A stretch of DNA of 43,532 bases, taken from the NCBI GenBank assembly GCA_964603905.1, contig CAZRWH010000006.1, forward strand, positions 3,224-46,755, given 5' to 3'. Below, in pieces: positions 142 through 21,770 of the stretch (position 1 is the first letter of the stretch; every line of letters starts with the position of its first letter). This DNA is from an uncultured Candidatus Peribacteria bacterium. Its GTDB lineage: Bacteria > Patescibacteriota > Gracilibacteria > UBA1369 > UBA12470. A program made the position numbers and the translations under genes. The notes below the pieces were generated by a model, which saw nothing but the letters and a program-made list of their open reading frames with translations, did not search any database and was not told where the DNA came from.

Positions 142-1374
142 AACCTCCACATTCCCAATCACCGCAACTCTAAGATTCTCAGGTGCCAGCAGCTTCTCCG
201 CAACTCGACGAACATCTTGCGCTGTAACAGCCTCAATCCCCTCCAAAACAGCATCAACATCACGAATTTCTCCATAAAGAAGCTCGTATTTTGCAAGTAA
301 ATGAGCCATTTCTTCACTATCTTCTAATTTCAAAATAATCTTGCCCTTCATATAAGCTTTTGCCTTTTCAAGCTCCTTTTCTGGCACATCTTCAGTACGA
401 ATCTTCTCGTATTCCGCTTTGATCGCATCAACCGCCTCAGAGACACGTTTTGCATCAACCCCAGCTCCTGTTGAGAGGGTTCCACAATCGGTATAATTGT
501 CTGTCGACGTCCTAATATAATAACAAAGCCCGCGCTCCTCACGCACCGACATAAACATTCGAGAACTCATATTTCCTCCAAGAATCACAGAAAGCACTTT
601 CTCCGCATAGCTATCCTCGTGCATTTCAGGAACACCACGAACACCAACGACAAGATGAACTTGTTCTGTCTTCTTTTTGTGGATTTTCTTGGTGTTTTTG
701 GCCAAATCTGGATCAAAAGGATTGTACTCCAAGCTCTGCTTCGCTTCTCCAAATTTAAACTTCTCCTCAACCAATCTCACCGCATCCTCGTGCTCAATAT
801 TTCCAACAACCGCAACTACACAATTGTCCGCTGTGTATAGCGCCTCTTTATATTTTTTAAAGTCCTCATGCGTCACATTTTTGATAAGCTCCTTGGTTCC
901 AATTTGATCCCACCCCATAGGCTGATCTCCGAAAACAAGCTGCTCAAAATCCCAACCAATTTGGTACATCGGCGTATCTTGATACATGTTGTACTCCTCA
1001 AGAATCACACCTCTCTCTTTTTCGATCTCTTTTGAATCAAATTTTGCATTCAGCATCATATCCGAAAGAACATCCGCAGCAACTTCAGCTTTTTCAGAGG
1101 CAACTTTTACAAAATATCCCGCATACTCCTTACCTGTAAAAGCGTTAAAAACACCTCCAACACCATCAATAGCCTCAGAAACCTCACGCGCATTTTTGTA
1201 AGTGTCAGCACCCTTGAAGAACATATGCTCCAAAAAGTGTGAAATACCTCTAAGTTCTTGGTTTTCATAACGACTTCCGGCACCACAAAGCACCAAAATC
1301 GTAACCGCTTTTGTGCCTTCCATTTTCCCCGTTACAACTCGCAGACCACTTTCCAATTGTGTTTTTTTATACAT
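139..1374 (-). CDS. M16 (pitrilysin/insulinase) family zinc metallopeptidase
   Basis: HFLEH (HxxEH) zinc motif near the N-terminus and typical M16 length. The ATG at 1374 (MYKKTQLESGLRVV) is preferred; the ORF track extends to a GTG at 1404. Confidence 0.85.
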   Translation of the reverse strand: MYKKTQLESGLRVVTGKMEGTKAVTILVLCGAGSRYENQELRGISHFLEHMFFKGADTYKNAREVSEAIDGVGGVFNAFTGKEYAGYFVKVASEKAEVAADVLSDMMLNAKFDSKEIEKERGVILEEYNMYQDTPMYQIGWDFEQLVFGDQPMGWDQIGTKELIKNVTHEDFKKYKEALYTADNCVVAVVGNIEHEDAVRLVEEKFKFGEAKQSLEYNPFDPDLAKNTKKIHKKKTEQVHLVVGVRGVPEMHEDSYAEKVLSVILGGNMSSRMFMSVREERGLCYYIRTSTDNYTDCGTLSTGAGVDAKRVSEAVDAIKAEYEKIRTEDVPEKELEKAKAYMKGKIILKLEDSEEMAHLLAKYELLYGEIRDVDAVLEGIEAVTAQDVRRVAEKLLAPENLRVAVIGNVEV

Positions 1375-1431
1375 AAAATTTGTTTTTAAATTTGCAAAAA
1401 ACACCTTAGCAGAAAAACCTAATAGAAACTA

Positions 1432-4020
1432 TTACATCTCGGCGAGAATATCTTTGGCTATAGCAGTCCAGGCACTAATAACATCAGCCCTACTTAAACC
1501 AGCGCCTTCAAGCACCTTAAGTCCATCCGCAGAAAGAATTTGTTTATCTTTATCAGCAAAGCAAACACCCTCATCCGAACAACGAATCTTCTCGCTCAGA
1601 GCATTTTGCAGGCCATCTTTTCCAAGCTCAACCATGCCAGGAATCACCTCCCTTGCTAAAGTTGCCTGCTGAAGAGGTGTAAGTCTGCCCAGCCTACCAT
1701 CATTTGCATATTCATAAGATAGTCCCAAAACATTTGTACTTCTCAAATTAGGCAATTTAGCCAGAGCTGAAATACCTTCAACTCCATGTTGTTCAATACG
1801 CTTACAATTAGAAATTCTAATAGTCTCTAGCGTAGGAGACATTTCCAACCCTTTTATACTTCTCAAATCATCAATTCCAACAAAAACAACCTCTTTTATA
1901 TTAGGAAAAGCAAACACTCTAGGTTCAGAATTAAGATTTCCAACTTTAAAAAACCTCAAATAAGTAATCTTTTCAGCGAACTCAGGATTGCCAGACAGGC
2001 TTTTGTATAGAAGATGATATTGCTCATTCGAATTAATACTCAATCCAATACCCTCTGCAGAAATTTCAATCTGCATAGGATCCAAAACCTCCCGAAGTTC
2101 TTCAGGTAAAGACTCATGAATTTCCTCCTGCTGTACCGTGATAGCATCCTTACCAGTATCTCCAGGCACCTCTTCCACTTCAGGCTCTTCTGTCGGCGGC
2201 CTCATCGGAAGCGGAGGAACTGGAGGTGGAACTGGCGTAGGTGCTGGAGTTGGCTCAGGAGCCGGTGCAGGCTCAGGAATCCCTTTGGCTTCACGCCATG
2301 CTTTATTGAGGTCATCAATCAAACTTTCTTGCGTCACATCATCACCAAATCTTTCCTGAATATCTCCTTTACGAACAACAGACTCAACTCTTTTCCAGCT
2401 TTTCTTAAACACAACACCTTTATTGCTACCAAACGTTAAAACCCCAAATGGCTCATCATAATACGAAGTTTCTTTAGATGAAAACTCTTGGATTGTATCT
2501 GTAACAAAACGCAATCTAGCAGCTTGATGTTCAGCATTCTCTCGAAGAGATAATTTTTGAACTTCTTCCCTCCATTTAGAATTCATAGCCTCTTCTATCT
2601 TCTTACCATGATCCAAATCCGAAAACTTCCTAAGTTCATCATCACTGCCCCAGTCAGCAAATCTAAGCCATCCATCTTCTAAATCTAGCTTGAAAGGAGC
2701 TTTCTCATGACCTTTCTCAACATCATTTTGCTCAATATTAGCCAAATATTTAGTAACTGTACTTCCAATAAACAACCTTTCTTGATGCGAGAATCCACTC
2801 AAATCAGCCTGTTCAACCTCGCCACTAATTTTCCTAAGCTTGTCTTCTGGTTCTCCATCACCAAAATCCAAATCATTATACCCAAGAAGAGAATACAAAT
2901 ATTTCTTATTCTTAGAACCTACTCGCCTAGCCGCTCCTTTCGCAGGATCATATGGAGCATCCGCAACTCTTGTAAAAGTATTTTTCTTCCTGTTAAACCT
3001 CCAACCATATTGAATAAACAAACCTTCATGCTCTAAAGAACCATCTGCCATTTCAGTAAACTTTTGATCAATCAAAATTTTCCTATTTAGTGCATCACGA
3101 ACCGTAAGTTCTTGCCCTTCAATATATTCAAGATTCCATTTAGAAGCTCCTTCAGGAGTAGTTATCCAGCTGCTTTTATACTCCTCTTTGACATTCCCAT
3201 CAGCATCCGCAATTCCAACCGCAATAGCTTTTTCTTTTGAAATCGTAGAACCAATCGGCAAATTCTTAGCACCTTCAAGATCTTCAATATCAGCATCCAT
3301 AACAGGTGCAAGAACCTCGCCACCAAAACTTTCCCCAGGCTGGTCAGAAACATGCCAACCACCACCTTGAGTCGTATCCAAAGAATTATACCAATCCAAA
3401 GAGCTCGCATATTCACGCGAAAGCTGATCCCAATTTTGGGCAACAGCTCCAAGGTCAAAAACCTCTTCAGGATAAATAAAATTCGGATCCTTATCCGCAC
3501 CACGCGCATCATTAATCATCTTGATAATCGCAAAAGTAAGCTTAGGTTGTTCAACCCAACTCAGATTAAATTCTCTACAAACAATCATCGAAAGCGTATC
3601 CCCAGCTTGCACAGTGTATTTACCAAGACCAGTAGGCGCAGCAGGCAACTGGCCAGGTGTAGCCGAAGGCGCAGAACCAGGAGCACTACCAGAAAGCTGA
3701 CTCCTCAAAGAGTTAAGCTTTTGTGTAAGTTCAGTAGCCTTAGCCTCAACATTTTCTTTTGTAAATTCTTCCAAAATCACCAAAATCTCACCCCTCATCT
3801 GTCCAGCCAAAGCGGCGTCAACACCATCCAAGTTTTCACTCAGGAACGTATTTAACTCTTGAAATTGAGCAGTAGTCATCTTAACCGCATCATCAATCTT
3901 AACCTCTTGATTCACGCTTTCATCAAGACTATCAACATCATTCAACTTAACCAAAACCTCTTCTTCGCTCACGTTAGGAACATCTGCCCCTCCACCAACG
4001 CCCATTCCTTGAGTACTCAT
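1432..4020 (-). CDS. large hypothetical protein (862 aa) with a LysM-like segment, Pro-rich spacer and C-terminal Cys-containing LRR-like domain
   Basis: Hydrophilic N-terminus with no signal peptide. YTVQAGDTLSMI...IYPEEVFDL is LysM-like (nt ~3451-3621). PEPAPAPEPTPAPTPVPPPVPPLP lies at nt ~2169-2280. ITYLRFFKVGNL / IKEVVFVGIDDLRSIKGL / LETIRISNCKRI lie at nt ~1696-2133. Confidence 0.8.
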   Translation of the reverse strand: MSTQGMGVGGGADVPNVSEEEVLVKLNDVDSLDESVNQEVKIDDAVKMTTAQFQELNTFLSENLDGVDAALAGQMRGEILVILEEFTKENVEAKATELTQKLNSLRSQLSGSAPGSAPSATPGQLPAAPTGLGKYTVQAGDTLSMIVCREFNLSWVEQPKLTFAIIKMINDARGADKDPNFIYPEEVFDLGAVAQNWDQLSREYASSLDWYNSLDTTQGGGWHVSDQPGESFGGEVLAPVMDADIEDLEGAKNLPIGSTISKEKAIAVGIADADGNVKEEYKSSWITTPEGASKWNLEYIEGQELTVRDALNRKILIDQKFTEMADGSLEHEGLFIQYGWRFNRKKNTFTRVADAPYDPAKGAARRVGSKNKKYLYSLLGYNDLDFGDGEPEDKLRKISGEVEQADLSGFSHQERLFIGSTVTKYLANIEQNDVEKGHEKAPFKLDLEDGWLRFADWGSDDELRKFSDLDHGKKIEEAMNSKWREEVQKLSLRENAEHQAARLRFVTDTIQEFSSKETSYYDEPFGVLTFGSNKGVVFKKSWKRVESVVRKGDIQERFGDDVTQESLIDDLNKAWREAKGIPEPAPAPEPTPAPTPVPPPVPPLPMRPPTEEPEVEEVPGDTGKDAITVQQEEIHESLPEELREVLDPMQIEISAEGIGLSINSNEQYHLLYKSLSGNPEFAEKITYLRFFKVGNLNSEPRVFAFPNIKEVVFVGIDDLRSIKGLEMSPTLETIRISNCKRIEQHGVEGISALAKLPNLRSTNVLGLSYEYANDGRLGRLTPLQQATLAREVIPGMVELGKDGLQNALSEKIRCSDEGVCFADKDKQILSADGLKVLEGAGLSRADVISAWTAIAKDILAEM

Positions 4021-10265: not shown

Positions 10266-13200
10266 TTATTCACCTGGGACTTCGTCAGTACTATTTTCCA
10301 TCCATCCAGTAGCACCATCCGGCATACTCAATTCTGCATGATCATGCTCCGGTTCAACACCTTCTACCGGAACCTCGTCAGTTCCAGAAGCAACAGGAGG
10401 TGGCGCCAAATCAGGAGTTTTCACTGGTGGAAGATCTTCAATTCGAGTAGTCCCAACCGGCTCAGGAAGTTCTAAATCATCTTCGGTCACCTCTTCTGGT
10501 TCTGGTTCAGGAAGGTCTAGATCGTCTGCCTCAACCTTTGTCAAAACCTCTTCTTGTTCAGCAACCTCAAGATTTGGAACTTTTCCTTCAAACGCCATTG
10601 CTTGACCATTGCTTGCTATAACACTCTTCAGGTTTGGCCATCTATCACGCAAAGAAATAATGTCACCGTCAGGGACCTGTGTACCTGCGACGTTAAGCTC
10701 TTCAAGCAAAGGACAGTTATAAAGAGAAGTCATATCAACAAGATCTGGCGAATCACTCAGGTCCGCTTTTTTCAATCCAGAACAGTTCCTCAAAGACCCA
10801 ACATCTTTCACTCCAGAAAGATCTATCTCAGAAACATGAGCCGCGGTTTCAACAAAACCTGTAAGATACACACTCAACATTTCCCATTTCATGTTATCTG
10901 TAGCAGTTACTCTATAGGTACCATCTTCCAAAAGCTCTATGTTTTTCATGCCAACAACTTTTTCAATAAGGGAGATTGCACTTTTATCAATTCTAGGATC
11001 TGTCTTTTCTCTTTCAGAAATTGCAAACCCTCCATGATCCTCAATTTGCTCAGGAGTTTTTCCAACACTAGCAAGTGAAGGATTTACCTCCAACATATCT
11101 GTTCTCTCCGTAGCACCAATATCCAAATCGTGAAAATCCGGAACTTCAGGACCTTGCTTCTCAATTTGCAAAGAATTAATGCCAGTAGGATCAGTATCTT
11201 CAAGGACTTCCCAATCAGTGTCGATAACATCATCCATTTCAATTTGAGGAACAGGTCTAGCAGGCAAAAGATTGTATCCTTCTAAAACAGTATCATTAGC
11301 ATGATATTCATCTTTAAATCCAAACCGAACAATATCACTAGTAAAAGCTCCATTATTCTCGACAACAACACGCCTCAACAACGTAAATGTTCTCAAAACC
11401 TCCTTAACAAACTCCTCTTCAGACGCCAACTCTTCTCCTAAATAAACCTCAGTCACATAAGTCATAGATTGAAACAACTCTTTCTGACGAGCACGATACT
11501 CCGTCATAAATGTTTGCATTTGATCTTTATTCCTAAACACAATTCCAAGCTGCGACTCCGCAACCTCAATAATATCTTCGACAGAGTCAGCAATCGAAGC
11601 CGGAATACCATATTTGTCTTCCAAAACTTTGGTGTCAACTGATCCAAACCCATTAACAACCTCTTGTTGCTGTTCAAAGGTTTTACCAGGGTCTGTAACT
11701 TCTTCTTTATCTTGTTTTTCTTCGGGCTCTGGATAAACCTCTGGCGCCTCTTTAGGATCAAAAGTAGACGGATCACCTATCCTATTAATTTCAGGGTTTG
11801 GTGCTTTTTGTTCAGCAACTTCTTCCTCGGCAGGGGTGTCTTCAGTTCCAAGATTAACAGGATCTGGAGCATCAGCAACATCCAAAGGAACAGTTGGTTC
11901 AGACACAATATCAGAAACCGGCTGTGTAGACTCAACAATCGATTCCCCAGAAATACTTTCTGGGTCAATAGTTGGCTCAGAAGGCACCTCATCAGCACCA
12001 CCCAGTTGCGCTTGAAGTTCAGAAACATCAAAAATCGCTGTATCTCCACCATGAGTAGGAGGAGCAGAACCGACACCCAAAGATTGCGACATTGCAGATT
12101 TAGCACCTTCACTACTGCTAGAAGAGTAAGGGATATATCCAGCGAATATTTTTCGCCCACTATCCTCTTCAAACAAATGACCACCCGCCCCATTCAAAAG
12201 CAAAGGATAATCAACACGGAAAACCGCACCTTCAGCCCCCTGAGGAGAAGAAATACCTTCAACCTCAACATCTGAAGCTCCTTTCTCAAACTGTTCAGGC
12301 AAATCACCTTCAAGAGTGTCATACAAAGCAACATGCCTATACTCATATCCTAACTCTGCCGCCATTTTGGTAAACGTTTCAATATAACTATCTCCCTCGA
12401 CAACAGTTCTATTTATCTTGTCAGCCAAAGGTGGAAGCTCATTAGGCATCGCCTCTCTAACTATTTGCATAAATGGAGCAATTTTATATCCAAAAACTCT
12501 CAAAAGATTTCTCTTGAAAGTATTTACAACCTCTTCGGTTTTTTCTGGAGAAATATATCTACCACCACCTACAAATTCACCACTCCTAGAAATATTAAGC
12601 TCTGCTGCAGAATGCTCACGTATTCCTTTTAGTAGCACACTTAAAGCATTCGCTGCCTCACCAGAAAGAGGCATAAGTTCATGACCAGGATCATTACGAT
12701 GCTCAATCACAAAACCAATAAAACTCAACGCTTGTACCATCTCCTCAAAAGCTGCCTCGGCGCCGTTAGTTAATTGCTCAAGAAGCTCACCATAGACCGC
12801 CCAATCAACATATGGATCAAGTCCTTTCTGGCTTTCAACTGCAACAATATTTTTAGAAAGAGTAACCGCCTTATCAATATGAGTAAAATAATCAATAAGA
12901 AACGGCGAATCAATAATAGCCTTCAAAGCTTCTCGAACCTCAACATTAACAACACACGCCTCTAGAACCCCTGCATCATCCGGAAGCAACGACTCACGAA
13001 CATTCTTCGGCAATGTAAATTCATCTCCAGCTCTCTCCGGCATTTCAAGTGCAGTAGCAGACAAATTCAAAACCCAAGAATCATCCTGGTCAGGCTCTCC
13101 ATCAACAAGCTCCATCGGCTCACCGGTAAGAGCCTCATGTTCTCTTACAGCAGCTTCAACAGGCCCAATTTGCACAGGAACAAGCTCTTCAAGCAAAGGC

Positions 13201-16200
13201 TCTTGTTTAACATCTTCAGTAGTTTCTAAAACAGGTTCTTCCGGTTTCTCGGCAAACTCAGGAGCACCATCAAATTCACGCAACACCGGAGGTGGACCTG
13301 GATCGACTTGAGCTGGGTTTTCCGCAGAAACAGACCCTGAAATTGGTTCTAAGTCAAATTCAGAATGTTCTGCCTCATCTGCCACCTGCTCACTGCCATC
13401 TGTTATCTCTTCAACCTCCCCAAACGGCACAATCTTTTTGCCTAAAGGAATAAATTCTGCCCTGCCTGGATAAGGTGACGTTTTTTCTTTATCAATAAGA
13501 TGGAACACTGGACGTGCAACACGAACAATGAGAGGTCTTGCTTCGTACTCTGTATCTACATCCTCGAGAGGAAGCGCAGGAAGCCTCAATTCTCTTATTC
13601 CAATTACTTTCTCATCACGCAATTCATAGTCAAAAGCATCAGCAACATACAAAGGGATATGTTCATATTTCCCATTTAATTTCATAGAAACATTATTAAC
13701 CAAATCCCTAATACCACCAGAGAACTCAGAATGAATATCCTTGTCGTTAACCTTTAAATCCCCACATCTTGCCTCTACTTCCCCAGATAAAACAGGTACC
13801 TCGTTAGGCAAAGCTTCAACTACAAATTGAAGAGATCTGACTATAGGACAAACTACATGATTAAGAAGCATATCCATTTTGTTTCCCATTTGCCTTTGAA
13901 TCGCTTCAGGCCCCGTGCCGAAATTGTATTTAGGCTCAAACAACAAATGCTTTAATCGCAAAGCCTCGGACTCAGAAAAAGACATTTCCTCAAGGTTTTC
14001 ACTAGTAGCAAATTTTCTCAAAACATCAAAACGCAAAAGAGCATTGTAAGCACCTTTATTATAATCTTCCCACATCTCACGATACTCAGGACTAACATCA
14101 GCTTGTTTCAACAATTCATTACTATCTAATACAGCCTGCATCGTACGCTTCTCAAGAGCAGCTAATTCAGGCGAACCAACAAACTCACGATAGAATTCGA
14201 CGACAGGTCCAAAATTCTCAAAAGTATTTTTTACACTAGCAATCACATCCGGATATTCAGAAAGAGGCTTTCTTTCCCCTTCATCTATACCCAACTGCTG
14301 CGCTAAAGAATTAATATCAAAGCTTTGAGTCTCTTCAACCTGCTCACTGTCATCTGTCATCTGTGATCTGTCATCTTCTGCCGCCGTCTCTGCTCCTTGC
14401 TGACTACTGACTACTGACTCTACCGCCGCCCCACTGTCCACTGTCCTCTGTCCACTGTCCTCTGTAACCCTCTCCAACTCCGCCCTAGCCTCAGCTTCAG
14501 CAATACGAATATTCTCCCTCTCTATTGTAGTATCAATCCAATCAACAACTTGATCCCTACCTTCAAGATTCTTTTCTGGAGAACCTTCAAAAATAACTCT
14601 TCTAAGATTTGGAATGTATCTTAACTTATGAGCAATTGTAGTAATATTAAAATCAAAAACTTCGCCAGACAACTTGACCGATTTCAAACGCCTACGGAGC
14701 TCTTCATTCTCATCAATCAAAGCTCTGAACGAATAACTATGCGTAAAAATTGCATAATCGTCCAGGGTCAACTCTATGCCATCTCCCTCTTCTTCTTTTT
14801 CGAACTTCCAGCCCCTGTCACTGATTTCAGAGAGGAGAGTGTCTTCCCCCAAAAACTCCTTAACCTTTTCTTCACCCCTCAAGCTTTCTTTCGCCTTTCC
14901 AGGATAAGTTATCTTCCTCAAATTTTTCGCCCCTCTAAGAGCATCACGAACAACTTCAGGTTTTTCAATAAGAGCAGCAGGCAACATAACCTCATTCAAA
15001 GCCTCAGCAACCTCAGGACGCTTCAACTCTTCCTTAAGAACAGCAAGTTGATCCTCATCACCGATCCAAACATCAATAGCCTTGCCCTCAGCCTGCTCTT
15101 GAATGTTTTCAAACTTACCTTCAAGACTTTTTGCAACAGAAACTACATCGACAGACTCAACATCTTTCTCAGTTGGTTTCTCCACATCGTCCAACTCAGG
15201 ACCAACAGGCCCAGGTCCAACTGGAGGCACACCTCCGTCATCTATATATGGGTCCGTTGAATCTTGTTCATCGTCTAAATCGTCAGAGTCGCCATAAAGG
15301 AATTCATGTAATTTATCGCTAACATCAAAAACCTCCACCCATCTTCCATCCTTCCTAAATCCAATCCTCTGTAAATTAACCGCCTTTTTAAGAACCTCTT
15401 TCAATCTTGGTAAATCCGTAAACTCTTCATCAAGGGAAATATACCCCAGTACATTTGCAACATCAGGGTCATTCAATTCCTCCTCCAGCAAGTCAATTTG
15501 AGACTCATAAGCTCCAAGTATCGCAATATAATCACCAGGCTCATTATCCACAATCATAGCCCCCTGAAACTTGCCCGAAAGTCTATTTTTTATAGCCAGT
15601 TTTTTCTCGTGAAAAAGATCCTCCTCAGAATCAACCGGAGGAGACCCACCAAGAACTATAACTACAGGGTTCAAAAATCTTTCAACAGCCTCCCTATCTT
15701 CATAATATTCCTTATTAGGCAAATACAAACCTTCTAAATTCTTTGCTTTTTTTAGTATTCTTATAAGCTTTTGTTTCTGCTCAAAATCAAACTCGTCCTT
15801 AATCCCAATTTGATACAATACCTTAACAACATCAGGGTCATTAAGCTCTTCATCTAAAATATCAAGCTGGTCTGGACCTAAATTCATATAAATCATATTT
15901 TTTTCTCGGTCTGTAGGATGACCGACCATCATAGCCCCATCAAACTTTTTCGAAAACCTCATTCTTATAGCCTGACAATCGTCGTAAGGAAGACCAGACT
16001 CAATAGCAGGATCTTCAATCTCCCCAATCGGAGCTACTTTGAGATCAGATGGTTGTTCCGCATCTGCTCCTTGCTCTCTGCTCTCTGCCATCTCTTCCAC
16101 CGCCCCACTGTCCACTGTCCCCTGTTCACTACCCACTGTCCCCCCCGAAGGCCCAACAGGCTCACTTGCATCAGCAGGTCCATCAATCGGCTCCAAGTTA

Positions 16201-19200
16201 AATTCGGACACCTCTTCTGACGCTTCCGCCGCCTCACTGTCATCTGTCATCTGTTCTCTGTCATCTGCTTCCGCCTCATCTGCCGCCCCACTGCCCACTG
16301 TTCTCTGTCCACTGTCCACTGCCCTCCTCGAAGGCCCAACAGGCTCACTTGCATCAGCAGGCCCAGAAGTCGGTTCTAAATTAATTTCAGATACCTCTTC
16401 CGACGCTTCCACATCACTGTCATCTGTCATCTGTTCACTGCCATCTACTGACTCCCCGCTTTCAGTCGCACTGTCATCTTCTGCCGCCTCTTCTGCCGCC
16501 CCACTGTCATCTGTCCCCTGTTCACTATCCACTATCCCCCCAGACGGCCCAACAGGCTCACCGCCATCACCAGGTCCATCAATCGGATCTAAACCAAAGT
16601 CATCTTTCGGCAAATCCACACCTCCCCAGTCCCATTCAGTCCAAGGAGTTGGACCAACAGTAGGCTCAGACAATTCATACGCAGCCTCCATATCTATAGG
16701 TTTTCCGTCAGGACCAAGAATGTTTCCATACCTATCAACATCAGGAAGCTGAGAACGCTCTCCATCACGTTGCGCTTTCTCAAGAGCAACCGGACTATAA
16801 GCAACTATAGGAGGAGCAATGAAAGCATCATGAGTACCCTCTTTTTCAATTAAATAAGAAGCTTGAGGACAATCAGCAGGTTCCGTTGGAACATTAAACA
16901 AATGCTGTGGCTGACCATCTTCCCAGTCGGCGATATAATCTCCAGGATTTACAACATCGTCACTGCCAGGGATAACAAGTTTATCAAGACTTCCATCTCC
17001 TTTTATCATCGCAAGTGAACTCAACATATTATCAGGCCCACGTTGAGCACACATTATGTATTCTCCAAGGAACTTCGGCTTAGCACCAGAAGTGCCCCAA
17101 AGAAGTTTTCCAACATCACTACTGAATGTAGCCTCTCCACTAGAATCAATCGTAAACGGTAGATGACGAACAACACCACTACCATCTTTCACAGCAGCAT
17201 ATAGAGCAATTTCACCTTTATTAAAGGCAGCTGCAACATCAAGTCCAGGGCCACCAACAGTTTGAGTAGGTTGACCTGCACCTTGTTTCAGCATCTCTTT
17301 GATACTCAAAACCACATTACCACTAGGATCAACGCCATCAGTTCCTCCGAACCATAGTCGTTGTTCTTGAACAAGCTCAACACCTTCACCAGAAACATCA
17401 GGAGTTCCATTGTGCCAGTGATCTCCAAGTTTTTCTTCTACAAATCCAAGGCCGCTCCATTGAGAAGGAGTCATACTTCCAGTAGATACTGTAGTCAGTG
17501 TTGGAACAGTTGTGTATCCGCTACCGGTAGTAGCAACTGTAATACCTTGCGATCTCAAATAAGTTTCAGCATTGCTAGAGAAAACACCCGGACTGTCATA
17601 CCAATAAGAGTCAGGTGAAACATGCCCCACTGGAATAAGTCCACGTCCTTCTAAATAAGTAATCAAAGACTCAGCATCCGCAACATAACTTCCTGCAAGA
17701 ATTCCGTTATTAACAATCGAACAGTTATCAATCAACCATTGTTGAGTAACAGGACCTGGATCAGGTGCATCAGACGGCATTTGAATAAGAACAGGCCTTC
17801 CATCCACCATAACCGTTTTATCAATAATCGGTCCTGTATAAACATCAACCTCAGTACACCCTCCATAACCAATCGGATCACCAACATCAAAACCTTCAGC
17901 TGTAAGATAATCCAGAGAAGGCTGAGTCAAAAGACCGTTATTTCCATAAACAATCCTGCTCGGATCAAGACCATTATCAACAGCAAATTGATTGATCGCA
18001 TTAACCGATCCAACATTAACCGAGACATCTTGTCCAAAAGGACCAAACATCATATTTCCAAGCTTACTAACTCCAAAGAAAGCGCTACTAGTCACACCTC
18101 CGAAAAGCGCACCGATCGAAGCAGCTTTTGCGTTTTCTTTGAACTTAAGCCATTTAAAATCTTTTCTTTTACCTGTAATCATCGCCTCAAGATCTTCACG
18201 AATCGTATCAAGCTTACCAACAAGATCAGCATCAACGTTTCGATCACCAGCATTTTGCTCTAACCAATCACGTCCACGACGAGCTGCAGCAAGAAGAGCT
18301 GTTCTATCACGCTCGACATGTTTGGCGTCGCTGAACGAAATCAAATCGATCCTTCCTCCACCTCTCTCAGGCCTCTCTTCAAAACTCATAGTATTTCTAA
18401 TCTCAATCTCAGCAACCATTCGTACAACAGCCTCGTAATCATTACTTTCGATAGCGTTCTCCATCGAACTAAGAAGCGCAACCGCACTCTCCTTCTCCGA
18501 AGTAACTTCAGAAAGTTTTTTCTGCCAAGTTCCATCTGGAGCTTGAACATAATATCCAAGAGCTTCACGTCTGTTTTGTTGAGCCTCTTGCATAATGACA
18601 GCACGATCTCTGTGCTTACCAGCAAGCAAACCTCCAGCGATAATACCACCAGCAGCGGCAGCAATTGCAGGAGCAGCAGCAGGCGCTACCAAAAGACCAA
18701 GCGCACCACCGATTGCAGCACGACCAGCCATACTAGAACCAACGTTATAAAGTCCGTTCATAACACCATACATACCGATAGAAACTGCTGTCGGCGACAT
18801 AGCCCATTTCAAAGGAGGATATTTCGCACCCCACTTTTGAATTCTAGAAACAGCCTTGTCCGCCCAAGTCCTATCCTCCGCAGACGAGTGAACATCAACA
18901 TTCATCGCCTTTCCGATTTTTAGAGTTAATCTAAAATTATCTAAATCAATATTTGCAACACCTCGCACATGCTTCAGGCGAAGATCTTTCATTCTTTCAG
19001 CAACATCTGTCGCCAAAGTTTCATCACCTTCAGGATCTCCAATATGTTCTCTACGAATCTCATTAATCATTCGAGTCGCACGCCTTTTGAAATCCTCATC
19101 AGTAACAGTTCCAACAAGATACTGCCTAGCAAGATCATCAAGTTGTTCCATATGCATAGTTCCTTCTAGCTCAGCAATCATCTCGTCTGGTGTAACATCA

Positions 19201-21770
19201 CCGGTATTAAACCTATTCAATATCGCATTAACCTCAGCTTCATGAGAAGCGAGATCACCTGCCTCAGCACCGCTCATTGCAGTTTTGAAAAAGTCAGGAT
19301 CTTCTTTTAGCTTCTCTAAATATTCAGCCTCGTACTTATCTACATAACCTTGTCTCGCAATACCACGACCATAACCCTTCACAAAGTGACCAATCTTCTT
19401 GAAGAAAGTCGCTTCTTTACGGTCTTTGTTAATCTCATTAAGTTCTCTTTCGTATCTCTCTTCAGCTAAACGACGAGCGATCTTTTTGAACTTTTCTTCA
19501 ACGTCAACAACAGAGATATCAAGCCCCTCCATAGTTGGTCCCTCAGCAAAAATTACTCTAGGAACTTTTGGACTGTCGTCTACTCCATCTCCTTCTTCAA
19601 TGTAAAGCAAATACTTGTAAAGTGCTCCCCAATCTTTGAATCCTGATTGGGTAAGCAATTTATAAATCCCATAAAGCATCGACAGTTTATTCACATCAAC
19701 ACCCATCTCAGGATGCCCAGAATAAAAAGTGTGTAAATCAGCGAAATCATACTGACCAAAATGCCTAAAGTTTTGACATAAAGTTTTAAGAACAGAATGC
19801 ATCTCGTTTTTAAATGCAGAAGTGCCAAACGCTGTCTGCAAATGATTAGGAAACTTGTTGGCGTTTCCCTCCAAAATCGCAATAACATCTTGGTAATTCC
19901 CAAGGTCAACATCAAGGTAAGCTTTTGCATCCGGACCTATAGTCTCACTGCCTTCAATCTCAACCCATCCACCTTCAGTCTCCTTCAAATTCCAAACTTT
20001 CGGCTGCTTATCTCTCTCTTGATAATGAATCAAAACTGCAAGAACCTTAGCCATATCAGCCTCAATGAAAGTATTCGGAGCAAACATCATTGCTCTTCGG
20101 TACAACGTTTTCATTTCTGGGTCATCACCTCCGCGTTCTTGAATCGCTTTAATCAAATCCCCAATCAAATTGTGCCTAGCTTCAGGATTATTCCTTTGAT
20201 CCTCTTGCAAAAGAGCGTCTATCACGCTATTAACCCCATCAACAACTTTTGGATATTTAATTTCAAAATCGTTCAAACTTATCGCCCCTTCACTTTCGTT
20301 AGAATGAATTTGATAACGACCTTTCCCAGGAGAAATAGTGTTCAAAATCATTCCAGAAATCTTCATTTCAATCCTCTCTCGAATCGCCGGTTTAACCCTA
20401 ACAGCTCCAGCAAAAATCTTAAGATCATTGTCATACTCCGCAAGAGCTTCAGGCATGTTTTCATTAGGACGAGCACCTCCCATTAGCTCATCAAAAAGCT
20501 CACGAGCAATTTTCATCCGACCTTCTCTGTGAGCTTGTTCATCAGATATTTCACCTTCAACTCCTTCACGTCCTTTCGCAAGAATTTGCTCAGGAGTCAG
20601 ATTCGCAATTTTCTCAGCTAACGGCTGCCTAAACATTTCATCAGCAGCACGTTCAAGTTTATTCGCATTCTCTTTACGCGCCACACGTTCAGCCATGTTA
20701 TCAAGATGAGCCTTATAATCAGCTCTATCTTTTTCAATAAGTTCAAGCGCATCCAAAGCTACGGGATCGTTCTTATCAAAGATATAAAAAGGCTCCTCCT
20801 CTCCACCAAACCCCATTCGATCATCATCCCAATAATATTTGGCATCAGCCCCTTCCCCAACCACAATAACATGATTCCATCGAGGCAAATCAGCACCTCC
20901 AGCAAGTTCAAATTGAGTAACAGATTCTATTTTCACTTTCTCGAATAACTCTTTCAAATCATCCTTGTTTTTTTCGCTAAGCTTATCTTCAATTTTGCTA
21001 AATCGACTGTGCAGAACTCTAAGCAAGTATGTCAATTGTTCAGAAGCATCGTTTGGCGATTTAAAGTTCAATTTTTCATACAAATCCGCATACTTTTCTT
21101 TCCCAGCCACAACACCAGCCACAAACTCGTTCAACATCTTTTGATCTCCTTGAACACGAGTTTCAAAACTTTGCCCAAGACGTTCAAGGCGTTTCTCATT
21201 CACATTTTCAATCAAATCAGGAGTTGGGATTGACGCTGGCTCCGGTGTAGGCTCCGCTACAGGCTCTATCATAGGCTCCGTATCACTTTCCTCATCCTCA
21301 ACAGCATCCATATCCACACCCAAATAATCAGCTGCTTCTTCTACAAATTTAACAAAAGGAGACAATGCAGCACCACCTAAGTTAACAAACTCAGTGCTGG
21401 TAAGTCCTTCTGAAACACCCTTTTGATAACCCGACTCCAAAAACCCTTGCATCGATGGACAAAGCTCATACCCTACAACAACAGCACGATGCTCTTTTAA
21501 CCCCTCAGGGAACTGAATATCCTTCCCTTCTTGCTTTGCTTGCCCCCAAACAGGAACGAATTCAGTTAATTCAGTCTTTTGTTCAACAAGCGGGCGCAAC
21601 TTAGCGTAATACTGCATCAACAGTTCAATATCCTTCGCGTCTGCAGCTTCGATTTTGGAAGGTTCAGAATTATCAGCAGTGGTGAATTTTTGAACGATCT
21701 GCTTAAGCCGCCCTATCACTTCGTGGAATTTGGGCGCCTCTCTTCGTTCTGGTGTGTTTTGTGGTGCCAT
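10266..21770 (-). CDS. giant mosaic protein (3,834 aa) with a central glycine-zipper hydrophobic region, repeated modules and a C-terminal LRR-like domain
   Basis: Uninterrupted 11,505-nt ORF with an ATG start. AAIGGALGLLVAPAAAPAIAAAAGGIIAGGLLAG lies at nt ~18615-18818. Tandem modules lie at nt 14532-15962. The LRR-like segment EIDLSGVKDVGSLRNCSGLKKADLSDSPDLVDMTSLYNCPLLEELNVAG lies at nt ~10611-10853. Confidence 0.85.
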   Translation of the reverse strand: MAPQNTPERREAPKFHEVIGRLKQIVQKFTTADNSEPSKIEAADAKDIELLMQYYAKLRPLVEQKTELTEFVPVWGQAKQEGKDIQFPEGLKEHRAVVVGYELCPSMQGFLESGYQKGVSEGLTSTEFVNLGGAALSPFVKFVEEAADYLGVDMDAVEDEESDTEPMIEPVAEPTPEPASIPTPDLIENVNEKRLERLGQSFETRVQGDQKMLNEFVAGVVAGKEKYADLYEKLNFKSPNDASEQLTYLLRVLHSRFSKIEDKLSEKNKDDLKELFEKVKIESVTQFELAGGADLPRWNHVIVVGEGADAKYYWDDDRMGFGGEEEPFYIFDKNDPVALDALELIEKDRADYKAHLDNMAERVARKENANKLERAADEMFRQPLAEKIANLTPEQILAKGREGVEGEISDEQAHREGRMKIARELFDELMGGARPNENMPEALAEYDNDLKIFAGAVRVKPAIRERIEMKISGMILNTISPGKGRYQIHSNESEGAISLNDFEIKYPKVVDGVNSVIDALLQEDQRNNPEARHNLIGDLIKAIQERGGDDPEMKTLYRRAMMFAPNTFIEADMAKVLAVLIHYQERDKQPKVWNLKETEGGWVEIEGSETIGPDAKAYLDVDLGNYQDVIAILEGNANKFPNHLQTAFGTSAFKNEMHSVLKTLCQNFRHFGQYDFADLHTFYSGHPEMGVDVNKLSMLYGIYKLLTQSGFKDWGALYKYLLYIEEGDGVDDSPKVPRVIFAEGPTMEGLDISVVDVEEKFKKIARRLAEERYERELNEINKDRKEATFFKKIGHFVKGYGRGIARQGYVDKYEAEYLEKLKEDPDFFKTAMSGAEAGDLASHEAEVNAILNRFNTGDVTPDEMIAELEGTMHMEQLDDLARQYLVGTVTDEDFKRRATRMINEIRREHIGDPEGDETLATDVAERMKDLRLKHVRGVANIDLDNFRLTLKIGKAMNVDVHSSAEDRTWADKAVSRIQKWGAKYPPLKWAMSPTAVSIGMYGVMNGLYNVGSSMAGRAAIGGALGLLVAPAAAPAIAAAAGGIIAGGLLAGKHRDRAVIMQEAQQNRREALGYYVQAPDGTWQKKLSEVTSEKESAVALLSSMENAIESNDYEAVVRMVAEIEIRNTMSFEERPERGGGRIDLISFSDAKHVERDRTALLAAARRGRDWLEQNAGDRNVDADLVGKLDTIREDLEAMITGKRKDFKWLKFKENAKAASIGALFGGVTSSAFFGVSKLGNMMFGPFGQDVSVNVGSVNAINQFAVDNGLDPSRIVYGNNGLLTQPSLDYLTAEGFDVGDPIGYGGCTEVDVYTGPIIDKTVMVDGRPVLIQMPSDAPDPGPVTQQWLIDNCSIVNNGILAGSYVADAESLITYLEGRGLIPVGHVSPDSYWYDSPGVFSSNAETYLRSQGITVATTGSGYTTVPTLTTVSTGSMTPSQWSGLGFVEEKLGDHWHNGTPDVSGEGVELVQEQRLWFGGTDGVDPSGNVVLSIKEMLKQGAGQPTQTVGGPGLDVAAAFNKGEIALYAAVKDGSGVVRHLPFTIDSSGEATFSSDVGKLLWGTSGAKPKFLGEYIMCAQRGPDNMLSSLAMIKGDGSLDKLVIPGSDDVVNPGDYIADWEDGQPQHLFNVPTEPADCPQASYLIEKEGTHDAFIAPPIVAYSPVALEKAQRDGERSQLPDVDRYGNILGPDGKPIDMEAAYELSEPTVGPTPWTEWDWGGVDLPKDDFGLDPIDGPGDGGEPVGPSGGIVDSEQGTDDSGAAEEAAEDDSATESGESVDGSEQMTDDSDVEASEEVSEINLEPTSGPADASEPVGPSRRAVDSGQRTVGSGAADEAEADDREQMTDDSEAAEASEEVSEFNLEPIDGPADASEPVGPSGGTVGSEQGTVDSGAVEEMAESREQGADAEQPSDLKVAPIGEIEDPAIESGLPYDDCQAIRMRFSKKFDGAMMVGHPTDREKNMIYMNLGPDQLDILDEELNDPDVVKVLYQIGIKDEFDFEQKQKLIRILKKAKNLEGLYLPNKEYYEDREAVERFLNPVVIVLGGSPPVDSEEDLFHEKKLAIKNRLSGKFQGAMIVDNEPGDYIAILGAYESQIDLLEEELNDPDVANVLGYISLDEEFTDLPRLKEVLKKAVNLQRIGFRKDGRWVEVFDVSDKLHEFLYGDSDDLDDEQDSTDPYIDDGGVPPVGPGPVGPELDDVEKPTEKDVESVDVVSVAKSLEGKFENIQEQAEGKAIDVWIGDEDQLAVLKEELKRPEVAEALNEVMLPAALIEKPEVVRDALRGAKNLRKITYPGKAKESLRGEEKVKEFLGEDTLLSEISDRGWKFEKEEEGDGIELTLDDYAIFTHSYSFRALIDENEELRRRLKSVKLSGEVFDFNITTIAHKLRYIPNLRRVIFEGSPEKNLEGRDQVVDWIDTTIERENIRIAEAEARAELERVTEDSGQRTVDSGAAVESVVSSQQGAETAAEDDRSQMTDDSEQVEETQSFDINSLAQQLGIDEGERKPLSEYPDVIASVKNTFENFGPVVEFYREFVGSPELAALEKRTMQAVLDSNELLKQADVSPEYREMWEDYNKGAYNALLRFDVLRKFATSENLEEMSFSESEALRLKHLLFEPKYNFGTGPEAIQRQMGNKMDMLLNHVVCPIVRSLQFVVEALPNEVPVLSGEVEARCGDLKVNDKDIHSEFSGGIRDLVNNVSMKLNGKYEHIPLYVADAFDYELRDEKVIGIRELRLPALPLEDVDTEYEARPLIVRVARPVFHLIDKEKTSPYPGRAEFIPLGKKIVPFGEVEEITDGSEQVADEAEHSEFDLEPISGSVSAENPAQVDPGPPPVLREFDGAPEFAEKPEEPVLETTEDVKQEPLLEELVPVQIGPVEAAVREHEALTGEPMELVDGEPDQDDSWVLNLSATALEMPERAGDEFTLPKNVRESLLPDDAGVLEACVVNVEVREALKAIIDSPFLIDYFTHIDKAVTLSKNIVAVESQKGLDPYVDWAVYGELLEQLTNGAEAAFEEMVQALSFIGFVIEHRNDPGHELMPLSGEAANALSVLLKGIREHSAAELNISRSGEFVGGGRYISPEKTEEVVNTFKRNLLRVFGYKIAPFMQIVREAMPNELPPLADKINRTVVEGDSYIETFTKMAAELGYEYRHVALYDTLEGDLPEQFEKGASDVEVEGISSPQGAEGAVFRVDYPLLLNGAGGHLFEEDSGRKIFAGYIPYSSSSSEGAKSAMSQSLGVGSAPPTHGGDTAIFDVSELQAQLGGADEVPSEPTIDPESISGESIVESTQPVSDIVSEPTVPLDVADAPDPVNLGTEDTPAEEEVAEQKAPNPEINRIGDPSTFDPKEAPEVYPEPEEKQDKEEVTDPGKTFEQQQEVVNGFGSVDTKVLEDKYGIPASIADSVEDIIEVAESQLGIVFRNKDQMQTFMTEYRARQKELFQSMTYVTEVYLGEELASEEEFVKEVLRTFTLLRRVVVENNGAFTSDIVRFGFKDEYHANDTVLEGYNLLPARPVPQIEMDDVIDTDWEVLEDTDPTGINSLQIEKQGPEVPDFHDLDIGATERTDMLEVNPSLASVGKTPEQIEDHGGFAISEREKTDPRIDKSAISLIEKVVGMKNIELLEDGTYRVTATDNMKWEMLSVYLTGFVETAAHVSEIDLSGVKDVGSLRNCSGLKKADLSDSPDLVDMTSLYNCPLLEELNVAGTQVPDGDIISLRDRWPNLKSVIASNGQAMAFEGKVPNLEVAEQEEVLTKVEADDLDLPEPEPEEVTEDDLELPEPVGTTRIEDLPPVKTPDLAPPPVASGTDEVPVEGVEPEHDHAELSMPDGATGWMENSTDEVPGE

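What the first reader, a model, noticed from the sequence alone, without database searches (positions are those of the whole stretch)
14532..15962. Four tandem copies of an unrecognised ~100-aa module, each ending in a single LRR-like strand
- **Seen:** aa 1937-2035, 2060-2160, 2212-2310 and 2330-2413 align by eye.
- **Seen, shared landmarks:** block 1 reads (S/L)xGKFxGAM(M/I)V in the first two copies, reduced to LEGKFENI in the third and absent from the fourth. Block 2 reads QLDILDEELNDPDVVKVL / QIDLLEEELNDPDVANVL / QLAVLKEELKRPEVAEAL. Block 3 reads LKKAKNLEGLYLP / LKKAVNLQRIGFR / LRGAKNLRKITYP / LRYIPNLRRVIFE. Block 4 is a short acidic FL motif (VERFLNP / LHEFLYG / VKEFLGE).
- **Seen:** a fifth, more diverged copy lies at aa ~3380-3480 (nt ~11331-11630) and ends LRTFTLLRRVVVEN.
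- **Limit:** I do not recognise the module as a named domain.
Basis: seen in the sequence. Interest (0 to 1): 0.7.

Follow-up and report, generated by a model that had tools for sequence, protein, structure and literature searches.

The report
Orphan repeated domain in giant protein
A giant 3,834-residue protein of an uncultured Peribacteria (CPR) bacterium carries five copies of a ~115-residue helix/strand domain that matches no known family and turned up in no other protein, most likely as structural or binding beads in the protein's fast-changing half; it is real, but a modest curiosity.

Summary
The finding lies in one 3,834-aa ORF (window 10266-21770, minus strand).

**Copies**
- Copies 1-3 are clearly homologous (blastp 5e-8 to 2e-4; Smith-Waterman z 8-18).
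- Copies 4 and 5 are diverged members. They link through copy 3 (z 5.8 and 5.1) and pass leave-one-out profile tests (11-12 bits, reached by 1 of 3,000 shuffles).

**Fold**
- AlphaFold2 gives a confident compact domain (pLDDT 90, pTM 0.82) with order alpha-beta-beta-alpha-alpha-beta-alpha-beta-beta-alpha.
- The "LRR-like strand" is the fourth of five strands, not the end of the module, and nothing supports an LRR.

**Relatives**
- Pfam, NCBIfam, PHROGs and PDB sequences gave no match.
- Foldseek found nothing significant (best E 0.08 in PDB, 0.02 in BFVD; TM at most 0.43).
- An exhaustive profile search of 1.84 billion representative proteins found only this protein and one spurious TPR hit.

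**Context**
- A metagenome orthologue shares residues 187-1740 (48% identity). It carries a HAD hydrolase where the modules sit here.
- The modules therefore lie in a variable, linker-separated C-terminal half.

Function is inferred only: non-catalytic spacer or binding units.

The parts
10266..21770 (-). Giant ORF of 3,834 aa that contains all the modules
   Evidence: ORF list and translation. The exact sequence is a singleton cluster from an NCBI contig of 58,431 bp.
15651..16001 (-). Module 1 (aa 1924-2040)
   Evidence: HMM and blastp. The single-sequence AF2 run gives the same helix/strand order at pLDDT about 70-85.
15276..15629 (-). Module 2 (aa 2048-2165), the copy that was modelled
   Evidence: AF2 with the 5-copy alignment: pLDDT 89.9, pTM 0.82. 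Elements: H2-18, E24-27, E34-40, H42-52, H55-60, E61-67, H73-80, E88-93, E96-102, H105-112. The single-sequence run gives the same topology.
15174..15275 (-). Acidic, proline-rich linker between modules 2 and 3 (aa 2166-2199)
   Evidence: Composition profile. pLDDT is below 50 in the array model.
14826..15173 (-). Module 3 (aa 2200-2315), the copy that links to modules 4 and 5
14511..14825 (-). Module 4 (aa ~2316-2420), diverged
   Evidence: Smith-Waterman against m3 gives z 5.8, in register. Leave-one-out profile score 11.3 bits, reached by 1 of 3,000 shuffles. Only the N-terminal half has the matching secondary structure in the single-sequence model, and confidence there is low.
11301..11642 (-). 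Module 5 (aa ~3377-3490), diverged and isolated
   Evidence: Smith-Waterman against m3 gives z 5.1. Leave-one-out profile score 12.3 bits, reached by 1 of 3,000 shuffles.
16002..16601 (-). Acidic low-complexity linker before the array. It includes a 183-nt tandem repeat at 16085-16623.
   Evidence: TRF and direct-repeat search. Protein-level repeats at aa 1724-1900.
14301..14510 (-). Acidic linker after the array. Its DNA is 77-82% identical to the linker before the array (14333-14470 matches 16058-16283).
   Evidence: families D2 and D4.
16551..21212 (-). Conserved N-terminal part (aa 187-1740), shared with the metagenome orthologue
   Evidence: blastp against the L003 3,207-aa ORF: 48% identity over 1,613 columns. 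L002/L005 share only aa 864-1296.
18618..18788 (-). Hydrophobic Gly/Ala-rich segments (aa 995-1051), read as a transmembrane hairpin
   Evidence: Kyte-Doolittle scan. Conserved in L002.
18036..18131 (-). Third, weaker hydrophobic segment (aa 1214-1245), preceded by a Lys-rich stretch
   Evidence: Read from the sequence and from the alignment with L002. The topology is an inference.
10611..10838 (-). Short genuine-looking LRR stretch near the C-terminus (aa 3645-3720)
   Evidence: Pfam LRR_4 E 0.019 and LRR_EndoS E 0.14, both below threshold.

Best explanation
The finding is a lineage-restricted protein domain of about 115 residues.

**What is shown**
- It is present in five diverged copies: four in tandem and one about 950 residues downstream.
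- All copies sit in the C-terminal half of a 3,834-aa protein. The organism is probably a Candidatus Peribacteria (CPR/Patescibacteria) bacterium.
- Each copy is predicted to fold on its own into a compact alpha/beta unit. The order is N-terminal helix, beta-hairpin, two helices, strand, helix, beta-hairpin, C-terminal helix.
- It is not a solenoid repeat.
- The copies arose by old internal duplications.
- They sit between acidic low-complexity linkers in the part of the protein that differs completely between orthologues.

**What is inferred**
- The positive-inside rule applied to the three hydrophobic segments at aa 995-1245 puts residues from about 1250 to 3834 outside the cell.
- No polar residue is invariant across the five copies; only two leucines are. 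The modules are therefore most likely non-catalytic.
- They probably act as spacer or ligand-binding beads of a long acidic surface filament. That filament also carries other orphan domains and a short C-terminal LRR.
- A role in attachment to a host or partner cell is the most plausible function.
For: **Repeat is real.**

**Compact domain.**
- AF2 on module 2 with only the five paralogous copies as alignment gives pLDDT 89.9 and pTM 0.82.
- A run without any alignment recovers the same helix/strand order for m1 and m2 at pLDDT 70-90, and for m3 at about 60-70.
- In that run the linkers are disordered and the whole array has pTM 0.29, so no fixed packing between modules is predicted.

**Orphan status.**
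- Pfam, NCBIfam, PHROGs and PDB sequences gave nothing.
- The profile of m1-3 against 1.84e9 representative proteins hit only the protein itself. The one other hit is a eukaryotic TPR protein whose score is the sum of nine matches of at most 9.5 bits.
- The 90%-identity cluster is a singleton.
- The word-indexed search with m2 gave 14 candidates and no hit.
- Scans of GTDB genomes and JGI metagenomes found no module.

**Variable half.**
- The syntenic orthologue L003 shares the DUF3352 neighbour at 44% identity.
- It matches aa 187-1740 at 48% identity and then diverges completely. It has a HAD hydrolase (E 1e-14) after its own acidic linker.
- The module HMM and hhalign find nothing significant in L002, L003 or L005.

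**Organism.** The neighbouring PBP is 82% identical to one in a MAG titled Candidatus Peribacteria.

**No catalytic signature.** Only L80 and L86 are invariant across the five copies.
Against: - The function is not tested at all.
- The topology rests on weak Gly/Ala-rich hydrophobic segments and a rule of thumb. Only one segment exceeds Kyte-Doolittle 1.5.
- A HAD hydrolase at the equivalent place in the orthologue would sit more naturally in a cytoplasmic or delivered-effector context.
- Copies 4 and 5 rest on modest statistics, with empirical P of roughly 3e-4 to 1e-3 each.
- Copy 4 was not folded confidently without an alignment.
- I could not inspect model coordinates, so the sheet order and the helix packing are unknown.
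- No library of predicted cellular structures (AlphaFold DB) was available, so 'no structural neighbour' covers PDB and BFVD only.
Confidence: 0.55

Rival explanations
1. The module is a very degenerate mini-LRR. It would consist of three beta-alpha units of 27 residues (of the ribonuclease-inhibitor-like or cysteine-containing/F-box LRR type), closed by an N-terminal cap (helix 1 and strand 1) and a C-terminal cap (strand 5 and helix 5). That would make it a diverged member of the LRR superfamily rather than a new domain.
For: - Strands 2, 3 and 4 of the model start at residues 34, 61 and 88, exactly 27 apart, with helices between them.
- Block 3, 'L..vLKKAkNL..i.f', resembles the helix-to-strand turn of RI-like LRRs. 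This is my own recollection, not a test.
- The best BFVD match is an F-box protein (E 0.02, prob 0.95, TMq 0.40).
- The same protein ends in a short LRR.
- The best non-member hhalign window is next to an LRR-looking stretch of the L002 giant protein (P 0.005).
Against: - No Pfam LRR model hits any copy, even at E=10.
- No LRR protein is among the top 50 PDB Foldseek hits.
- There is no 27-residue sequence periodicity in the module profile (z 0.8).
- Strand 2 ('YIAILGA') is hydrophobic at consecutive positions. That suits a sheet covered on both faces better than an open LRR concave face.
- The L002 match is not significant after correcting for about 130 windows.
Confidence: 0.15
2. The C-terminal half is not a surface filament. 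It would instead be a cytoplasmic or delivered 'payload' region, and the modules would be intracellular interaction or regulatory domains. One example would be binding or immunity-like modules of a polymorphic multi-domain effector.
For: - Orthologues keep the N-terminal 1,740 residues and swap everything after it, which is the architecture of polymorphic toxins and effectors.
- The orthologue carries a HAD hydrolase at the equivalent position, and the next gene in L003 carries one too.
- The hydrophobic segments are weak, so the topology is uncertain.
Against: - No toxin, immunity or secretion-system domain was detected in the protein by Pfam or NCBIfam, nor in its neighbours by Pfam.
- The Lys/Arg-rich flanks of the hydrophobic segments fit an N-in/C-out topology.
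- Long acidic linkers and a terminal LRR are typical of surface proteins. This last point is from general knowledge.
Confidence: 0.15
3. The module is shared with a jumbo-phage protein (IMG/VR loci L006-L008, a 511-aa protein with an HEXXH motif) and is therefore not restricted to this bacterium.
For: - tblastn gives 36% identity over module residues 19-90.
- The module HMM scores 21-24 bits.
- Smith-Waterman z is 11 against m1 and m2.
Against: - The locus was selected because it contains the very pattern used for the scan, L[DEK]EEL[NK][DR]P.
- By my estimate, at the scale of the collection the scores correspond to E of about 1-50.
- The profile alignment covers only helices 2-3 and helix 4.
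- The Smith-Waterman alignment also takes in block 1 but deletes strand 2.
- A charged helical stretch replaces strand 3.
- There is no match to m4 or m5.
Confidence: 0.05
4. The similarity is a chance or compositional artefact of an acidic, low-complexity protein.
For: - The protein is 19% Asp+Glu and contains real low-complexity repeats.
- Copies 4 and 5 are weak.
Against: - Composition-preserving shuffles never reach the observed scores for m1-m3 (z 8-18).
- The alignments span about 100 residues in register.
- AF2 folds the unit confidently.
Confidence: 0.02

Closest known systems
Tandem structural domains of giant bacterial surface proteins and adhesins (for example the Ig-like repeat arrays of SiiE/LapA/Ebh-type proteins); comparison from general knowledge
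   Same: - Several diverged copies of a roughly 100-residue, independently folding unit.
- The units are strung along a very large, acidic, membrane- or wall-anchored protein.
- No catalytic residues are evident.
- A binding domain (here an LRR) lies near the distal end.
   Different: - Those repeats are all-beta Ig-like or cadherin-like folds that Pfam recognises, usually in tens of near-identical copies.
- This module is alpha/beta and matches no profile.
- It has only five copies, 18-39% identical to the modelled copy in the five-copy alignment.
- Surface exposure is inferred here, not shown.
Leucine-rich repeats of the ribonuclease-inhibitor-like or cysteine-containing (F-box) type, Pfam clan LRR
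   Same: - A helix-loop-strand motif, 'L..aLKKakNL..i.f'.
- A 27-residue spacing of three consecutive strands in the model.
   Different: - No LRR profile hit.
- No LRR structure among the Foldseek PDB hits.
- No internal sequence periodicity.
- The unit is closed by hairpins and terminal helices into a globular domain rather than an open solenoid.
Giant multi-domain proteins of CPR/Patescibacteria with a conserved membrane-associated core and variable remainder (here L002/L005 and L003/L004)
   Same: - The host protein belongs to this set. It shares aa 187-1740 with L003 and aa 864-1296 with L002/L005.
- It shares a DUF3352 neighbour with L003 (44% identity) and a PBP neighbour with L002 and L005.
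   Different: None of these relatives carries the module. L003 has a HAD hydrolase and other domains instead, and L002 has a different triplicated domain.
TPR_12-type (kinesin-light-chain-like) tetratricopeptide repeats
   Same: The sequence pattern 'L..eeL.d.hPdVa..Lnni' of block 2 resembles the helix B to helix A junction of these repeats. This produced the only non-self hit in the exhaustive search.
   Different: - Each individual match scores at most 9.5 bits.
- The module contains five strands.
- The segment that aligns to TPR helix A is strand 2 in the model.

Membership tests
Leucine-rich repeat (Pfam clan LRR) | Match to an LRR sequence profile (LxxLxLxxN/CxL units of 20-30 aa) | tested here: not met
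   hmmscan of each of the five copies against Pfam-A up to E=10 gave no LRR family. As a positive control, the C-terminal aa 3597-3735 gave LRR_4 at E 0.019.
Leucine-rich repeat (Pfam clan LRR) | Tandem internal periodicity of the unit | tested here: not met
   A profile self-comparison at shifts of 8-59 residues gave z 0.8 at shift 27. No shift is significant after multiple testing. The secondary-structure spacing of 27 residues is present.
Leucine-rich repeat (Pfam clan LRR) | Curved solenoid with a parallel sheet on the concave face and helices on the convex face | tested here: inconclusive
   No LRR structure is in the top 50 Foldseek PDB hits. The best BFVD hit is an F-box protein at E 0.02. 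The model coordinates could not be inspected.
Any Pfam-A / NCBIfam / PHROGs family | Score above the curated threshold or a significant E-value | tested here: not met
   The best values are E 0.05 (DUF4897, one copy) and 0.026 (a PHROG, one copy).
Tetratricopeptide repeat (TPR_12) | Helix-turn-helix units of 34-42 aa that are significantly similar in sequence | tested here: not met
   The best single-repeat match to P0002 is 9.5 bits, and the total E of 5.9e-6 comes from summing nine repeats. The model has strands where TPR has helix A.
Known protein folds in PDB / BFVD | Foldseek E <= 1e-3 or TM-score >= 0.5 to a solved or predicted structure | tested here: not met
   PDB: 0 hits at E<=1e-3, best E 0.083, TMq at most 0.43 (partial matches to ANL adenylation N-subdomains and GlfT2). 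BFVD: best E 0.02, TMq 0.40. AlphaFold DB and ESM Atlas were not available.
Barstar-like / SUKH-type small alpha/beta immunity domains (considered from memory) | Sequence-profile or structural match to these families | tested here: not met
   Neither is in the Pfam results nor among the top 50 Foldseek PDB hits. The beta-alpha-alpha-beta-alpha-beta-alpha core order resembles barstar only on paper.
Giant conserved-core protein family of Peribacteria/Patescibacteria (host protein) | Homology of the membrane-associated core and conserved gene neighbourhood | tested here: met
   48% identity over aa 187-1740 with L003, and 36% over aa 864-1296 with L002. The DUF3352 neighbour is 44% identical and the PBP neighbour 78-82% identical.

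The most novel reading that the evidence does not exclude
The module is a truly new alpha/beta fold. It would have arisen and been amplified inside the hypervariable, linker-delimited half of one Peribacteria giant protein, with no relative anywhere else. The conserved acidic linker DNA that brackets the array would act as the recombination substrate that shuffles such domain cassettes between or within giant genes.
Probability: 0.2. Interest if true: 0.55.

Novelty: new variant of a known kind. Interest (0 to 1): 0.35.

Why it matters
Giant proteins take up a large share of the small CPR genomes and are suspected, from general knowledge, to mediate attachment to host cells. Almost none of their domains are characterised.

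This one is a clean case:
- It is a confidently foldable, ~115-residue orphan domain with defined boundaries, suitable for expression and structure determination.
- It shows that orthologous giant proteins keep a 1,700-residue membrane-associated core while exchanging the entire distal half.
- If the fold proves new, it adds a family to the domain catalogues. It also gives a handle on how CPR surface proteins diversify.

Otherwise it is one more lineage-specific repeat.

Tried and rejected
**Searches that found nothing**
- Self-blastp of the whole protein reported only the identity hit. It was replaced by chunked blastp.
Those two searches are uninformative. The 118-aa m2 query gave 14 candidates and no hit.
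- The genome-contig scan with the whole protein found no relative.
- The metagenome scan with the module alignment found none.
- The look-up of encoding contigs had no record of the protein.

**Candidate extra copies, rejected**
- A possible sixth copy at aa 461-517 (SW z 3.4 against m1; HMM 2.2 bits). hhalign of the module profile against the giant+L003 alignment of that region gave P 0.11.
- A possible copy in L002 at aa ~741-784. It is in register, but hhalign P is 0.005 among about 130 windows, which is not significant.
- The C-terminal cap+LRR region as a sixth copy. hhalign found nothing.

**Spurious or unproven hits**
- The TPR protein P0002 is an additive-repeat artefact.
- The phage protein L006 was selected by the search pattern itself and is not significant at collection scale.

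**Modelling attempts that did not work**
- A two-module alignment meant to give AF2 an MSA for a tandem pair failed, because MAFFT aligned m3 to m2 in a staggered way.
- The four-module array was therefore folded as a single sequence. The result has low overall confidence (pLDDT 55, pTM 0.29) and was not used for fold search.

**Literature**
- The literature tools failed on every attempt, so no paper is cited.
Full report
**Where the finding sits**

The window contains a single 11.5-kb open reading frame on the minus strand (10266-21770, 3,834 aa).

The neighbouring genes are bacterial housekeeping and envelope genes:
- an M16 peptidase
- a class B penicillin-binding protein
- MurJ
- an ABC exporter
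- a C39-like peptidase
- an SLH-domain protein
- a DUF3352 protein

Many ORFs without any Pfam match lie between them.

The penicillin-binding protein is 82% identical to one in a MAG titled 'uncultured Candidatus Peribacteria bacterium'. It is 78% identical to one in a 'Patescibacteria group bacterium'. The organism is therefore very probably a member of the Peribacteria (CPR).

**Is the repeat real?**

Yes for copies 1-3:
- Chunked blastp against the whole protein gives 4.7e-8 (m1-m2), 1.5e-7 over 100 residues (m2-m3) and 1.8e-4 (m1-m3).
- Smith-Waterman scores are 17.9, 13.4 and 8.0 standard deviations above composition-preserving shuffles.

Copies 4 and 5 are more distant:
- They are invisible to m1 and m2.
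- They align in register with m3 along almost the whole unit (z 5.8 and 5.1, 0 of 300 shuffles).
- In leave-one-out tests each scores 11-12 bits against a profile of the other four copies. Only 1 of 3,000 shuffles of the left-out copy reached that score.

I accept copies 4 and 5 as diverged members with moderate confidence.

- Every module begins about 12 residues earlier, with a helix.
- Copy 4 does keep a remnant of block 1. 'WKFEKEEEGDGIELTL' aligns with 'GKFENIQEQAEGKAIDVWIG'.

There is no nucleotide-level similarity among the modules, so the duplications are old.

A putative sixth copy at aa 461-517 in the conserved N-terminal part did not survive a profile-profile test (P 0.11).

**What the module looks like**

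AlphaFold2 on module 2, with only the five paralogous copies as alignment, gave a confident model (mean pLDDT 89.9, pTM 0.82). Its elements in order are:

| Element | Residues in module 2 |
|---|---|
| helix 1 | 2-18 |
| strand 1 | 24-27 |
| strand 2 | 34-40 |
| helix 2 | 42-52 |
| helix 3 | 55-60 |
| strand 3 | 61-67 |
| helix 4 | 73-80 |
| strand 4 | 88-93 |
| strand 5 | 96-102 |
| helix 5 | 105-112 |

The four-module array was then run without any alignment:
- It reproduced the same order of elements for m1 and m2 at pLDDT 70-90, and for m3 at about 60-70.
- The linkers were left disordered.
- The array as a whole had pTM 0.29, so no fixed inter-module geometry is predicted.
- m4 was poorly resolved.

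| Block | Position in the model |
|---|---|
| Block 1 | end of helix 1 plus strand 1 |
| Block 2 | helices 2 and 3 |
| Block 3 | helix 4, a loop and strand 4 |
| Block 4 | helix 5 |

The 'LRR-like strand' is therefore an internal strand of a closed globular domain, not the end of the module.

**Is it a known domain?**

No evidence for that was found.

Profile and sequence libraries:
- Pfam gives nothing on the whole protein (E up to 1) or on each copy (E up to 10).
- NCBIfam and PHROGs give nothing.
- A profile search of all PDB sequences has a best E of 0.32.

Structure libraries:
- Foldseek against the PDB has no hit at E <= 1e-3. The best is E 0.083, with TM normalised to the query at most 0.43. 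These are partial matches to Rossmann-like pieces of adenylation enzymes and GlfT2.
- Foldseek against BFVD has a best E of 0.02, to a medusavirus F-box protein.

Tests of the LRR idea:
- Strands 2, 3 and 4 begin exactly 27 residues apart, which is suggestive.
- The module profile has no sequence periodicity at that shift (z 0.8).
- No LRR profile hits the module, whereas the protein's real C-terminal LRR does give weak LRR_4 and LRR_EndoS hits.
- The central strand is hydrophobic at consecutive positions. That fits a sheet covered on both sides.

**Does it occur anywhere else?**

The exhaustive profile search covered 1.84 billion proteins, each representing a 50%-identity cluster, drawn from about 15 billion proteins. 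It returned two proteins:
- the giant protein itself
- a eukaryotic TPR-transporter fusion protein

The second hit's E of 5.9e-6 is the sum of nine weak matches, each at most 9.5 bits, to kinesin-light-chain-type TPR units. It is an additive-repeat artefact.

Other searches agree:
- The protein is a singleton at 90% identity.
- A short-query word search found nothing.
- Scans of GTDB species genomes and JGI metagenomes with the protein or the module alignment found no module.

A scan of IMG/VR did pull out a jumbo-phage protein sharing 'QIDILEEELKRPD' and 'LLKKxxNL':
- It scores 21-24 bits, and Smith-Waterman z is 11 against m1 and m2.
- However, it was selected by that very pattern.
- By my estimate the scores correspond to E of about 1-50 at collection scale.
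- It lacks strands 2 and 3.

I treat it as probable chance and list it as a minor rival.

**Context inside the protein and across relatives**

A composition map and the repeat analyses show the following layout:

| Residues | Content |
|---|---|
| 1 to ~1720 | conserved region, with hydrophobic Gly/Ala-rich segments at 995-1051 and 1214-1245 |
| 1724-1923 | long acidic linker made of 61-residue tandem units |
| after the linker | modules 1-4 |
| after module 4 | another copy of the linker |
| 2621-2762 and 3075-3203 | two copies of a second orphan repeat (z 5.3), separated by a further linker |
| after the second repeat | module 5 |
| 3645-3720 | short LRR |
| C-terminus | acidic tail |

A metagenome contig (L003, with L004 a second locus carrying the same match) carries a syntenic 3,207-aa orthologue:
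- Its DUF3352 neighbour is 44% identical.
- It matches residues 187-1740 at 48% identity and nothing thereafter.
- After its own acidic repeat it has a HAD hydrolase (Pfam 1e-14), other unknown domains and an LRR-like stretch.

A more distant relative (L002/L005) shares only residues 864-1296 and has a different triplicated domain.

The modules therefore belong to a distal half that is exchanged wholesale between orthologues. The linker DNA on the two sides of the module array is 77-82% identical over 60-87 nt. The array is thus bracketed by direct repeats that could mediate recombination.

**How it most likely works**

Shown:
- It is a repeated, independently folding alpha/beta domain.
- It has no detectable relatives.
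- It is located in the variable part of a conserved-core giant protein.

Inferred:
- The Lys/Arg-rich flanks of the hydrophobic segments fit a topology with the N-terminal 1,000 residues inside the cell and everything after about residue 1250 outside.
- Only two leucines are invariant across the five copies, so there is no candidate active site.
- The units are separated by flexible acidic linkers.

The most economical reading is that the modules are non-catalytic beads. They would act as spacers or weak ligand-binding units of a long acidic surface filament whose distal parts, including the LRR, contact a partner.

The main alternatives are:
- The module is a collapsed three-unit LRR.
- The whole distal half is an intracellular or delivered payload. 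This would suit the orthologue's HAD domain better.

Neither alternative can be excluded with the tools at hand.

**Verdict**

The LRR reading is not supported.

It is a new domain family in a known kind of setting: repeat modules in a giant, rapidly diversifying CPR protein. It is worth a structural follow-up but is not a surprise to specialists.

Interest is 0.35. There is roughly a one-in-five chance that it represents a truly new fold born within this gene family.

Noticed in passing
window 16085-16623; 14333-14470; 13379-13439: A conserved acidic linker (…SGQRTVDSGAA…EQMTDDSE…EVSEFNLEPIxGP…) recurs between the folded blocks of the giant protein. A 183-nt tandem repeat (82-83% identity) lies on the N-terminal side of the module array. 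Copies that are 77-82% identical lie on its C-terminal side, so the array is bracketed by direct DNA repeats. These could be substrates for cassette gain or loss.
   Followed up: partly
window 13485-13910 and 12162-12548 (aa 2621-2762 and 3075-3203): A second orphan internal repeat in the same protein. Smith-Waterman z is 5.3, with 0 of 300 shuffles reaching it, and there is no Pfam match.
   Followed up: partly
L003 2973-12596 (and L004): A syntenic 3,207-aa orthologue shares aa 187-1740 (48% identity) and then has a completely different C-terminal half, with a HAD hydrolase domain. The next gene (L003 13079-16834, 1,251 aa) also carries a HAD domain.
   Followed up: partly
L006 3873-5408 (IMG/VR contig of 182 kb; identical in L007 and L008): A phage protein with an HEXXH motif has a segment resembling module blocks 1-3 (GSFFGTIITG…QIDILEEELKRPD…LLKKEINL). 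It scores 21-24 bits, which is probably chance because the scan pattern selected it. A structure prediction would be worthwhile.
   Followed up: partly
window 10611-10982 (aa 3597-3720): A short LRR stretch near the C-terminus, preceded by a helix-hairpin 'cap'. It gives only sub-threshold Pfam LRR_4 and LRR_EndoS hits. Similar LRR-looking stretches occur in the variable halves of the L002 and L003 giant proteins.
   Followed up: partly
window 1-43532: Strong purine excess on coding strands. GC skew is about -0.3 where genes are on the minus strand and close to 0 where they are on the plus strand, with positive AT skew. About half of the large ORFs have no Pfam match, including 862-aa and 853-aa ORFs flanking the PBP gene.
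   Followed up: no
window 17883-19181 (aa 864-1296): This is the only part of the giant protein shared by all three relatives found. It contains the Gly/Ala-rich hydrophobic segments and motifs such as NFRLTLK, NVDVHS, WADKA, DLISFSD and GLDPS. It matches no Pfam family and may define the family's functional core.
   Followed up: no
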